64,000 nucleotides of DNA, taken from the NCBI RefSeq assembly GCF_009914755.1, contig NC_060929.1; one strand, 5' to 3'. This DNA comes from the human T2T-CHM13v2.0 reference genome, Homo sapiens. Shown here one piece after another: positions 55,411-59,237 of the stretch; positions within the stretch are counted from its first letter, which is position 1, and each line of letters begins with the position of its first letter. A program made the translations under genes and the position numbers. Under the pieces are notes generated by a model. It was given only the letters and a program-made list of their open reading frames with translations. It was not told the origin of the DNA and ran no database searches.

Positions 55411-56469
55411 ATGACAGGATCAAATTCACACATAACAATATTAACTTTAAATATAAATGGACTAAATTCTGCAATTAAAAGACACAGACTGGCAAGTTGG
55501 ATAAAGAGTCAAGACCCATCAGTGTGCTGTATTCAGGAAACCCATCTCACGTGCAGAGACACACATAGGCTCAAAATAAAAGGATGGAGGAAGATCTACC
55601 AAGCCAATGGAAAACAAAAAAAGGCAGGGGTTGCAATCCTAGTCTCTGATAAAACAGACTTTAAACCAACAAAGATCAAAAGAGACAAAGAAGGCCATTA
55701 CATAATGGTAAAGGGATCAATTCAACAAGAGGAGCTAACTATCCTAAATATTTATGCACCCAATACAGGAGCACCCAGATTCATAAAGCAAGTCCTCAGT
55801 GACCTACAAAGAGACTTAGACTCCCACACATTAATAATGGGAGACTTTAACACCCCACTGTCAACATTAGACAGATCAACGAGACAGAAAGTCAACAAGG
55901 ATACCCAGGAATTGAACTCAGCTCTGCACCAAGCAGACCTAATAGACATCTACAGAACTCTCCACCCCAAATCAACAGAGTATACATTTTTTTCAGCACC
56001 ACACCACACCTATTCCAAAATTGACCACATAGTTGGAAGTAAAGCTCTCCTCAGCAAATGTAAAAGAACAGAAATTATAACAAACTATCTCTCAGACCAC
56101 AGTGCAATCAAACTAGAACTCAGGATTAAGAATCTCACTCAAAGCCGCTCAACTCCATGGAAACTGAACAACCTGCTCCTGAATGACTACTGGGTACATA
56201 ACGAAATGAAGGCAGAAATAAAGATGTTCTTTGAAACCAACGAGAACAAAGACACCACATACCAGAATCTCTGGGATGCATTCAAAGCAGTGTGTAGAGG
56301 GAAATTTATAGCACTAAATGCCTACAAGAGAAAGCAGGAAAGATCCAAAATTGACACCCTAACATCACAATTAAAAGAACTAGAAAAGCAAGAGCAAACA
56401 CATTCAAAAGCTAGCAGAAGGCAAGAAATAACTAAAATCAGAGCAGAACTGAAGGACACAGAGACATGA
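55411..56469 (+). CDS. LINE-1 ORF2 N-terminal half (APE-like endonuclease plus linker), 352 aa, premature stop
   Basis: [14 protein letters not shown] start; N14, E43, Y115, D145, D205 and H230 motifs present. Ends ELKDTET* versus the recalled consensus ELKEIETQ. Confidence 0.9.
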
Positions 56470-59237
56470 AAACCCTTCAAAAAATCAATGAATCCAGGAG
56501 CTGGTTTTTTGAAAGGATCAACAAAATTGATAGACCGCTAGCAAGACTAATAAAGAAAAAAAGAGAGAAGAATCAAATAGACACAATAAAAAATGATAAA
56601 GGGGATATCACCACCGATCCCACAGAAATACAAACTACCATCAGAGAATACTACAAACACCTCTACGCAAATAAACTAGAAAATCTAGAAGAAATGGATA
56701 CATTCCTCGACACATACTCTCTCCCAAGACTAAACCAGGAAGAAGTTGAATCTCTGAATAGACCAATAACAGGCTCTGAAATTGTGGCAATAATCAATAG
56801 TTTACCAACCAAAAAGAGTCCAGGACCAGATGGATTCACAGCCGAATTCTACCAGAGGTACAAGGAGGAGCTGGTACCATTCCTTCTGAAACTATTCCAA
56901 TCAATAGAAAAAGAGGGAATCCTCCCTAACTCATTTTATGAGGCCAGCATCATTCTGATACCAAAGCCGGGCAGAGACACAACCAAAAAAGAGAATTTTA
57001 GACCAATATCCTTGATGAACATTGATGCAAAAATCCTCAATAAAATACTGGCAAACCGAATCCAGCAGCACATCAAAAAGCTTATCCACCATGATCAAGT
57101 GGGCTTCATCCCTGGGATGCAAGGCTGGTTCAATATACGCAAATCAATAAATGTAATCCAGCATATAAACAGAGCCAAAGACAAAAACCACATGATTATC
57201 TCAATAGATGCAGAAAAAGCCTTTGACAAAATTCAACAACCCTTCATGCTAAAAACTCTCAATAAATTAGGTATTGATGGGACGTATTTCAAAATAATAA
57301 GAGCTATCTATGACAAACCCACAGCCAATATCATACTGAATGGGCAAAAACTGGAAGCATTCCCTTTGAAAACTGGCACAAGACAGGGATGCCCTCTCTC
57401 ACCGCTCCTATTCAACATAGTGTTGGAAGTTCTGGCCAGGGCAATCAGGCAGGAGAAGGAAATAAAGGGTATTCAATTAGGAAAAGAGGAAGTCAAATTG
57501 TCCCTGTTTGCAGACGACATGATTGTTTATCTAGAAAACCCCATCGTCTCAGCCCAAAATCTCCTTAAGCTGATAAGCAACTTCAGCAAAGTCTCAGGAT
57601 ACAAAATCAATGTGCAAAAATCACAAGCATTCTTATACACCAACAACAGACAAACAGAGAGCCAAATCATGAGTGAACTCCCATTCACAATTGCTTCAAA
57701 GAGAATAAAATACCTAGGAATCCAACTTACAAGGGATGTGAAGGACCTCTTCAAGGAGAACTACAAACCACTGCTCAAGGAAATAAAAGAGGACACAAAC
57801 AAATGGAAGAACATTCCATGCTCATGGGTAGGAAGAATCAATATCGTGAAAATGGCCATACTGCCCAAGGTAATTTACAGATTCAATGCCATCCCCATCA
57901 AGCTACCAATGACTTTCTTCACAGAATTGGAAAAAACTACTTTAAAGTTCATATGGAACCAAAAAAGAGCCCGCATCGCCAAGTCAATCCTAAGCCAAAA
58001 GAACAAAGCTGGAGGCATCACACTACCTGACTTCAAACTATACTACAAGGCTACAGTAACCAAAACAGCATGGTACTGGTACCAAAACAGAGATATAGAT
58101 CAATGGAACAGAACAGAGCCCTCAGAAATAATGCCACATATCTACAACTATCTGATCTTTGACAAACCTGAGAAAAACAAGCAATGGGGAAAGGATTCCC
58201 TATTTAATAAATGGTGCTGGGAAAACTGGCTAGCCATATGTAGAAAGCTGAAACTGGATCCCTTCCTTACACCTTATACAAAAATCAATTCAAGATGGAT
58301 TAAAGATTTAAACGTTAGACCTAAAACCATAAAAACCCTAGAAGAAAACCTAGGCATTACCATTCAGGACATAGGCGTGGGCAAGGACTTCATGTCCAAA
58401 ACACCAAAAGTAATGGCAACAAAAGCCAAAATTGACAAATGGGATCTAATTAAACTCAAGAGCTTCTGCACAGCAAAAGAAACTACCATCAGAGTGAACA
58501 GGCAACCTACAAAATGGGAGAAAATTTTCACAACCTACTCATCTGACAAAGGGCTAATATCCAGAATCTACAATGAACTCAAACAAATTTACAAGAAAAA
58601 AACAAACAACCCCATCAAAAAGTGGGCGAAGGACATGAACAGACACTTCTCAAAAGAAGACATTTATGTAGCCAAAAAACACATGAAGAAATGCTCATCA
58701 TCACTGGCCATCAGAGAAATGCAAATCAAAACCACTATGAGATATCATCTCACACCAGTTAGAATGGCAATCATTAAAAAGTCAGGAAACAACAGGTGCT
58801 GGAGAGGATGTGGAGAAATAGGAACACTTTTACACTGTTGGTGGGACTGTAAACTAGTTCAACCATTGTGGAAGTCAGTGTGGCGATTCCTCAGGGATCT
58901 AGAACTAGAAATACCATTTGACCCAGCCATCCCATTACTGGGTATATACCCAAAGGACTATAAATCATGCTGCTATAAAGACACATGCACACGTATGTTT
59001 ATTGCGGCACTATTCACAATAGCAAAGACTTGGAACCAACCCACATGTCCAACAATGATAGACTGGATTAAGAAAATGTGGCACATATACACCATGGAAT
59101 ACTATGCAGCCATAAAAAATGATGAGTTCATGTCCTTTGTAGGGACATGGATGAAATTGGAAACCATCATTCTCAGTAAACTATCGCAAGAACAAAAAAC
59201 CAAACACCGCATATTCTCACTCATAGGTGGGAATTGA
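56466..59237 (+). CDS. LINE-1 ORF2 C-terminal half (PIP box, reverse transcriptase, CCHC), 923 aa, starting at an ATG that overlaps the upstream stop
   Basis: Uninterrupted frame with [17 protein letters not shown]...HCWWDC and normal end FSLIGGN. Whether it is translated is unknown. Confidence 0.75.

What the first reader, a model, noticed from the sequence alone, without database searches (positions are those of the whole stretch)
56437..56503. Young L1HS shares an inactivating 67-bp ORF2 tract with its older neighbour 8.1 kb upstream
Seen: 56437-56503 is identical to 48339-48405 (offset 8098). Both read GAAGGACACAGAGACATGAAAACCCTTC, and the elements differ again just outside (56436 A vs 48338 G; 56504-5 GT vs 48406-7 AC). 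Recalled L1HS consensus is GAAGGAAATAGAGACACAAAAAACCCTTC, so an otherwise near-consensus element has four substitutions and a 1-bp deletion within about 16 bp, all matching the neighbour. This is its only ORF-breaking lesion. Inference: non-allelic gene conversion from the dead L1PA4/5 copy disabled a potentially active L1. Unconverted, intact alleles may still segregate.
Basis: partly seen in the sequence, partly recalled or inferred. Interest (0 to 1): 0.88.

Follow-up and report, generated by a model that had tools for sequence, protein, structure and literature searches.

The report
Old L1 patch broke young L1
A young, otherwise intact human LINE-1 jumping gene carries a short patch copied from a decayed LINE-1 lying 8 kb upstream, and that patch alone breaks its second gene; it is a clean single example of a known process, gene conversion between repeats.

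Summary
56437-56503 equals 48339-48405 exactly, with mismatches on both sides. The 67-bp identity is not unusual in itself: it is the 6th longest of 317 identical runs between two L1s that differ at 7.5% of columns.

What is unusual is the content. The young element is a full-length pre-Ta L1HS with a 13-bp target-site duplication. ORF1 is intact, and ORF2 is open except at codon 353. Over 3,033 bp it departs from 23 close relatives at 13 columns. Five of these (four substitutions and a 1-bp deletion) lie within 13 columns, and all five match the old neighbour. None is shared by the relatives, apart from one base in 1 of 23.

The 20-mer and the 28-mer across the patch each occur twice in the 3.1-Gb assembly, only in these two neighbours. 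The four substitutions without the deletion occur in two unlinked old-type copies.

Best reading: short-tract (12-67 bp) non-allelic gene conversion from old to young, after insertion.

Not tested: other human haplotypes, ape orthologues, raw reads. Whether unbroken alleles still segregate remains open.

This is a new instance of a known process.

The parts
53418..59493 (+). Young full-length L1HS (pre-Ta type), 6,076 bp including the poly-A tail. This is the recipient.
   Evidence: The 5' end reads GGGGGGAGGAGCC and the 3' end is a poly-A tail. The 3'UTR trinucleotide is ACG, which a passage of PMC4866827 gives as the PreTa signature. Identity to 22 of 23 young chr1 copies over 3 kb is 99.0-99.6%; the 23rd is 98.7%.
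53405..53417 (+). 5' copy of the target-site duplication, GAAAGATGCTTAC
   Evidence: The exact 13-mer occurs twice in the window, flanking the element.
59494..59506 (+). 3' copy of the target-site duplication
54331..55347 (+). ORF1, intact, 338 aa
   Evidence: It matches solved human ORF1p chains.
55411..56469 (+). ORF2 first part, 352 codons, ending at an in-frame TGA (56467-56469)
   Evidence: It aligns to ORF2p residues 1-352 with 4 differences, 2 of them inside the patch (E349D, I350T).
56469..59237 (+). ORF2 second part, in the next frame, 922 codons plus stop
   Evidence: It aligns to ORF2p residues 354-1275 (353-1274 of the 1,274-residue chain shown). The FADD and Cys-His stretches are present.
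56437..56503 (+). Largest possible converted tract in the young L1 (67 bp)
   Evidence: It is identical to 48339-48405. It is bounded by 56436 and 56504-5, where the young element keeps the states of its own family.
56457..56472 (+). Informative core of the tract: C56457, C56459, T56467, G56468, and an A run (56469-56472) one base shorter than in relatives
   Evidence: Of 23 young relatives, 0, 0, 1, 0 and 0 share these states. All five states match the old neighbour.
46112..51345 (+). Older, decayed L1PA copy in the same orientation (the part that aligns to the young element). This is the donor.
   Evidence: It is 92.8% identical to the young L1 over 5,259 bp and differs at 7.5% of columns. 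The longest ORF is 181 aa, with 54-70 stops per frame across the ORF2 region. Its best matches elsewhere in the genome are 91-94% identical.
48339..48405 (+). Donor tract in the old L1
   Evidence: The core is 48359-48370, followed by the short A run.

Best explanation
After the young pre-Ta L1HS inserted 8.1 kb downstream of an old L1PA copy in the same orientation, a DNA break or lesion in its ORF2 was repaired using the misaligned old copy as template. This is non-allelic gene conversion, or synthesis-dependent strand annealing with an ectopic template.

A patch of at least 12-16 bp and at most 67 bp was copied from old to young. It carried over the old copy's decay at that spot: two missense changes, an in-frame TGA and a 1-bp deletion. 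This closed an ORF2 that is open everywhere else.

Shown: the patch, its identity to the neighbour, its foreignness to the young family, its uniqueness in this genome, and the single ORF break.

Inferred: that it was a repair or recombination event, its direction, and that it happened after insertion.
For: 1. Over 3,033 bp the young element departs from the majority of 23 close relatives at 13 columns. Thirty chr1 loci were fetched; 7 were dropped for identity below 97% or fewer than 2,900 aligned bases. Five of the 13 departures lie in 13 columns, and all five equal the old neighbour. The other 8 are each shared with at least one relative and so are lineage markers. In simulation, the probability of 5 or more of 13 falling in 13 columns is about 1e-6.

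2. An independent panel gives the same result: 0 of 24 copies share the four substitutions (29 fetched, 5 dropped).

3. The 20-mer occurs at 2 places in 3.117 Gb, both in this window. The 28-mer with up to 2 mismatches occurs at 21 places; the 2 exact ones are ours, and none of the other 19 has the state common to young copies. A generic pattern finds 5,506 L1 copies, so the search does see the family.

4. A 41-mer holding a rare marker of the young element's lineage has 4 exact copies genome-wide. The other three lack the motif, and two of them (L047, L056) were read directly and show the common state.

5. The flanks keep each element's own states at 56436/48338 and 56504-5/48406-7.

6. Direction. 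The young element has no private difference in the central 3 kb other than the patch. The old one differs at 7.5% of columns and is full of stops. The four substitutions together occur in 2 unlinked copies with old-type flanks, at chr1:95.8 Mb and chr15:36.6 Mb.

7. The chance that the only other carrier lies within 8.1 kb is about 5e-6.

8. Literature passages. Conversion between TE copies is elevated within 10 kb (PMC6598467, citing Aleshin and Zhi 2010). Break repair by L1-templated conversion in cell culture gave tracts as small as 13 bp (PMC1920257, citing Tremblay 2000).
Against: - Only one human assembly was available. No pre-conversion allele, ape orthologue or raw read was seen, so 'after insertion' and 'real in the DNA' are inferences.
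- The two elements are only 92.5% alike. Before the event, the core would have been flanked by just 20 bp and 31 bp of perfect identity, which is short and diverged for homologous repair.
- Dense private clusters can arise without any donor. One of the 23 relatives (L052) has 4 substitutions within 20 columns, and its 34-mer is unique in the genome.
- The old neighbour's own nearest relatives mostly do not carry the patch states: C at site 1 in 3 of 16, C at site 2 in 1 of 16, TG in 0 of 16. The patch is therefore also a dense cluster on the old background, and the argument for direction rests mainly on elapsed time and on the old-type carriers.
- By my rough estimate, about 4 copies with both C states are expected if the two are independent, against 7 independent carriers seen. 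A defined old sub-lineage is therefore not proven.
Confidence: 0.84

Rival explanations
1. The direction is reversed. The cluster arose in the young L1 and was then copied into the old neighbour.
For: Conversion leaves the same pattern whichever way it went. The old neighbour's 16 nearest relatives rarely carry the patch states, and TG is in 0 of 16.
Against: The young element has no other private change in 3,033 bp, so five changes would have had to arise in 12-16 bp within a short life and then be transferred. The four substitutions co-occur only on copies with old-type flanks. No young copy carries C, C or G: 0 of 23 and 0 of 24.
Confidence: 0.05
2. It is an assembly or polishing artefact: the patch was written into the young L1 from reads of the old copy.
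For: There is only one assembly and no reads were examined. Both copies lie in repeats.
Against: The two copies differ at 7.5% of columns. The young-specific states sit 21 bp to the left and 32 bp to the right of the core, so a misplaced read would also have dragged in those neighbouring differences. This is reasoning only; it was not tested.
Confidence: 0.03
3. The patch was inherited from the source element or acquired during insertion (for example reverse-transcriptase template switching onto a transcript of the old copy), rather than by later DNA repair.
For: The timing relative to insertion was not observed.
Against: No other copy in the assembly has the motif, including the 3 other members of the small lineage. 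A source with a broken ORF2 would be a poor source. Inheritance does not explain why the only other carrier lies 8.1 kb away (about 5e-6).
Confidence: 0.04
4. Independent mutation: the same five changes arose separately in both copies, or as one complex mutational event in each.
For: Two of the changes are of recurrent kinds. The short A run was seen in 3 of the first 100 listed copies and TG at the former CpG in 4 of 100. A private cluster with no donor exists in L052.
Against: The full combination occurs nowhere else among 5,506 pattern matches. In the young family the states are at 0-1 of 23. The joint chance is of the order of 1e-6 or lower.
Confidence: 0.01

Closest known systems
Pseudogene-to-gene microconversion (for example CYP21A1P into CYP21A2 in the RCCX module; interlocus conversion at SMN1/2)
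   Same: A decayed paralogue a few kb to tens of kb away, in the same orientation, donates a short patch that carries its disabling mutations into the working copy. Passages of PMC12350169 describe such interlocus conversion events at RCCX and SMN.
   Different: Here both partners are transposon copies of different ages, not products of a local duplication. They are only about 92.5% alike, and the loss harms the element rather than the host.
Non-allelic gene conversion between neighbouring Alu elements
   Same: Sequence is exchanged after insertion between interspersed repeats. The rate depends on distance and identity and is elevated within 10 kb (PMC6598467 passage citing Aleshin and Zhi 2010; PMC8230782 seen in a search listing only).
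   Different: The partners here are 6-kb L1 copies. The tract is very short relative to the element, and it has a clear functional consequence (ORF2 closed).
[quoted passage not shown]
   Same: An experimental precedent for the proposed mechanism: L1-templated repair with very short tracts, 'as small as 13 bp' in the words of PMC1920257.
   Different: That work used an induced break in cultured mouse cells with donors spread across the genome. I could not read the paper itself because it is not held. Ours is a natural, presumably germline event with a linked donor.
Allelic heterogeneity of human L1 loci (intact and interrupted alleles at one site)
   Same: [quoted passage not shown] This locus would fit if unconverted alleles exist.
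   Different: Those papers attribute inactivation to accumulating SNPs and indels. 'Gene conversion' occurs 0 times in PMC10883270 and once, in passing, in PMC13192797.

Membership tests
L1HS, pre-Ta subset | Full-length architecture: 5'UTR, ORF1 of 338 aa, ORF2 of 1,275 codons, 3'UTR, poly-A tail, target-site duplication | tested here: met
   ORF2 is colinear with solved ORF2p at residues 1-352 and 354-1275 but is broken at codon 353.
L1HS, pre-Ta subset | 3'UTR diagnostic trinucleotide ACG (ACA = Ta; GAG = L1PA2 and older) | tested here: met
   The window reads GATGACACGTTAG at 59342-59354. The key comes from a passage of PMC4866827.
L1HS, pre-Ta subset | Near-identity to other young copies | tested here: met
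   Identity over about 3,030 bp is at least 99.0% in 22 of 23 relatives and 98.7% in the other.
Non-allelic gene conversion tract | The recipient departs from its own family in one contiguous patch | tested here: met
   Five of 13 departures fall in 13 columns. Of 23 relatives, 0, 0, 1, 0 and 0 share them.
Non-allelic gene conversion tract | The patch is identical to a paralogous donor, and the flanks revert to the recipient's own states | tested here: met
Non-allelic gene conversion tract | There is no alternative source of the patch in the genome | tested here: met
   The 20-mer occurs at 2 of 2 places in this window. The 28-mer with up to 2 mismatches occurs at 21 places, none exact elsewhere. 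This covers one assembly only.
Non-allelic gene conversion tract | The donor state is native to the donor (sets the direction) | tested here: inconclusive
   The four substitutions occur together in 2 unlinked old-type copies. Among the 16 nearest relatives of the old copy, however, the states are rare: 3, 1 and 0 of 16.
Non-allelic gene conversion tract | A pre-conversion allele or outgroup state is observed | not testable with these tools
   No repeat-consensus library was at hand. The only measures available are 7.5% difference from the young L1 and 91-94% identity to its best genomic matches.

The most novel reading that the evidence does not exclude
Decayed L1 copies may act as local 'poison templates'. 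Short-patch conversion from old neighbours within about 10 kb would then be a regular, so far uncounted route by which young full-length L1s lose coding capacity, allele by allele. That would be a passive brake on L1 activity that scales with local L1 density. It would also explain some of the intact and interrupted allele pairs seen between human haplotypes.
Probability: 0.15. Interest if true: 0.7.

Novelty: new member of a known kind. Interest (0 to 1): 0.45.

Why it matters
Few human L1 copies still have both reading frames open, and which alleles are open differs between people. This locus shows, with an identified donor 8.1 kb away, that an L1 can be closed in one step by copying decay from a dead neighbour rather than by slow point mutation.

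If haplotypes without the patch exist, this site would hold a coding-competent pre-Ta allele that the reference sequence hides.

The case also gives a simple recipe for a genome-wide count. Look for private clusters in young L1s whose only other carrier is a linked old copy. That count would show whether the route is rare or common. In my small sample it was 1 of the 4 substitution clusters examined, among 24 young copies.

Tried and rejected
- **The 67-bp identity as evidence.** Rejected: it is the 6th longest of 317 runs, and 1.7 runs of that length are expected.
- **Other patches from the old neighbour.** I looked over the whole young element. In the central 3 kb I compared it with 23 relatives, and at the two ends with 6 relatives. 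No further patch matched the old copy. Single sites that equal the old copy (54833, 56870, 57614, 58136) are shared with young relatives and read as lineage states.
- **The motif in other collections.** It gave 0 matches in genome contigs and 0 in viral contigs. These are prokaryote and virus collections, so this says little.
- **A recombination-hotspot motif.** A recalled degenerate 13-mer gave 6 matches in the window, none within 2.7 kb of the tract. Uninformative.
- **Controls for 'a cluster means conversion from a neighbour'.** The L038 cluster is in 20 dispersed copies. The L046 cluster is in 18 copies. The L052 cluster is unique and has no donor. The L044 'cluster' is a multi-base deletion.
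- **BLAST-type genome searches.** They scored only 40 of 3,059 and 40 of 6,458 candidates, so those panels are samples, not the nearest relatives.
- **Literature.** A search for '5q14.3' with LINE-1 and 'source element' gave 0 papers. Four exact phrases for L1 gene conversion gave 1 paper, and there only in a reference title, Burton et al. 1991. Searches found no report of a young L1 closed by conversion from a neighbouring old copy. Subscription journals are mostly not held. The L1 analyses of Myers 2002 and Salem 2003, which I recall only, may mention conversion.
- Tremblay 2000 is not held.

Full report
**The observation**

Window 56437-56503 and 48339-48405 are identical over 67 bp. Both contain GAAGGACACAGAGACATGAAAACCCTTC. 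The identity stops on both sides: 56436 is A against 48338 G, and 56504-5 is GT against 48406-7 AC.

The two stretches lie in two L1 copies on the + strand. These copies are 92.8% identical over 5,259 bp and differ at 395 of 5,256 alignment columns.

At that divergence a 67-bp identical run is unremarkable. It is the 6th longest of 317 runs, and 1.7 runs of at least 67 bp are expected. The title of the finding therefore points at the wrong statistic. The content of the tract is what matters.

**The young element**

It runs from 53418 to 59493 (6,076 bp including the poly-A tail), between two copies of GAAAGATGCTTAC at 53405-53417 and 59494-59506.

- ORF1 is intact at 338 aa and matches solved human ORF1p.
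- ORF2 is split into 352 and 923 codons.
- The two pieces align without gaps to residues 1-352 and 354-1275 of solved human ORF2p.
- There is thus a single break, at codon 353, between the endonuclease domain and the reverse-transcriptase core. It holds two lesions: an in-frame TGA and an A run one base shorter than in relatives.

The 3'UTR trinucleotide is ACG. A passage of PMC4866827 gives ACG as the PreTa signature, ACA as Ta, and GAG as L1PA2 and older.

**Is the patch foreign to the young family?**

I picked copies by a 33-mer that holds a young-family state 130 bp upstream of the tract. There are 444 such copies genome-wide, and the first 30 on chr1 were fetched. Seven were dropped for identity below 97% or fewer than 2,900 aligned bases. 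The remaining 23 are 98.7-99.6% identical to the young element.

Over 3,033 bp the young element departs from the majority of these 23 at 13 columns.

- Five are C56457, C56459, T56467, G56468 and the missing A. They are shared by 0, 0, 1, 0 and 0 of the 23, and all five equal the old neighbour.
- The other eight are each shared with at least one relative.

A first, older panel gave the same answer: 29 fetched, 5 dropped, and 0 of 24 share the four substitutions.

Random placement of 13 differences puts 5 or more within 13 columns about once in a million trials. Apart from the patch, the element has no private change in its central 3 kb. At its ends, compared with 6 relatives, it has about eight private substitutions and a 6-bp insertion, and none of these matches the old copy.

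**Is the motif elsewhere?**

The whole 3.117-Gb assembly can be searched by pattern.

- The 28-mer with up to two mismatches occurs at 21 places. The two exact ones are ours, and none of the other 19 has the state common to young copies.
- A generic pattern over the same site finds 5,506 L1 copies, so the search does see the family.
- A 41-mer with a rare marker of the young element's lineage has four exact copies. The other three do not carry the motif, and two of them were read directly.

The chance that the only other carrier lies within 8.1 kb is about 5e-6.

**Direction**

This is the least secure step.

In favour of old to young:

- The young element has no other private change nearby. 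The old copy differs at 7.5% of columns and has 54-70 stops per frame.
- The four substitutions occur together, without the deletion, in two unlinked copies with old-type flanks, at chr1:95.8 Mb and chr15:36.6 Mb. Six unlinked copies share the two C states and show TG, CA or TA next to them, as expected from decay of a CpG.
- No young copy carries C, C or G.

Against:

- Among the 16 best-scoring relatives of the old copy, the states are rare: C at the first site in 3, C at the second in 1, TG in 0.
- By my rough estimate, about four copies with both C states are expected by chance alone.

I put old to young at about nine in ten, given that a transfer happened.

**Mechanism**

The tract is at least 12-16 bp long (56457-56472) and at most 67 bp.

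The simplest reading is repair of a break in the young copy using the misaligned old copy, 8.1 kb away in the same orientation, as template. A crossover outcome of the same event would have given an 8.1-kb deletion or duplication.

Passages in print fit this reading. Conversion between transposon copies is elevated within 10 kb (PMC6598467). L1-templated break repair in cultured cells gave tracts as small as 13 bp (PMC1920257, citing Tremblay 2000, which I could not read).

Points that sit less well: the partners are only 92.5% alike, and before the event the perfect identity beside the core was only 20 and 31 bp.

**Controls**

Clusters in other young copies behave differently.

- One is carried by 20 dispersed copies.
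- One is carried by 18 copies.
- One is unique, with no donor.
- One is a deletion.

So a cluster alone does not show conversion. The linked, exact and otherwise unique donor does.

**What stays open**

- No other human haplotype, ape genome or raw read was available. An assembly artefact is unlikely on reasoning alone, but it was not tested.
- Whether alleles without the patch segregate is unknown. [quoted passage not shown]
- The label L1PA4/5 for the old copy could not be tested without a repeat library.

**Novelty**

Gene conversion between interspersed repeats, and L1-templated repair, are known. My searches found no report of a young full-length L1 closed by a patch from a neighbouring old copy. 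The library lacks most subscription journals, however, and older L1 surveys that I only recall may mention conversion.

I file this as a new, unusually clean instance of a known process.

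Noticed in passing
window 56155 (and 55980, 56718, 56870); G000 chr1:118.87 Mb, chr1:180.2 Mb, chr5:33.75 Mb: The young L1 belongs to a very small lineage. A 41-mer holding its C at 56155 (ORF2p T249P) has only 4 exact copies in the assembly. The chr1:180.2 Mb copy (L056) shares 6 of the young element's 8 departures outside the patch.
   Followed up: partly
window 53838-53843: There is a six-base insertion in the young L1's 5'UTR that is absent from all 6 relatives compared. 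It coincides with the gap in NCBI's repeat masking at 53831-53842.
   Followed up: no
L052 = G000 chr1:165,591,884-165,591,917: Another young L1 has 4 substitutions within 20 columns of ORF2, and its 34-mer is unique in the genome. It is a dense private cluster with no donor in this assembly.
   Followed up: partly
L038 = G000 chr1:71,393,473; L046 = chr1:113,510,683: Two other clusters in young L1s are carried by 20 and 18 dispersed copies and so look like lineage or older-family states. Among the 18 carriers are linked pairs 17 kb apart on contig 23 (23,041,331 and 23,058,783), 77 kb apart on chr1 and 171 kb apart on chr6. These could be duplications or further exchanges.
   Followed up: no
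G000 chr1:95,819,904; chr15:36,605,664; chr4:120,986,257; chr5:38,877,635; chr9:118,716,939; chr2:63,937,258: Six unlinked copies share the two C states of the patch. At the neighbouring dinucleotide they read TG in 2 copies, CA in 3 and TA in 1, which is the spectrum expected from decay of a CpG. They may form a small old sub-lineage, but about 4 such copies are expected by chance.
   Followed up: partly
window 14961, 23775, 44135, 51181, 53663, 60534: A recalled degenerate 13-mer hotspot motif matches 6 times against 0.79 expected from shuffles. Two of the matches lie in G-rich parts of the two L1s: the old copy's 3'UTR and the young copy's 5'UTR.
   Followed up: no
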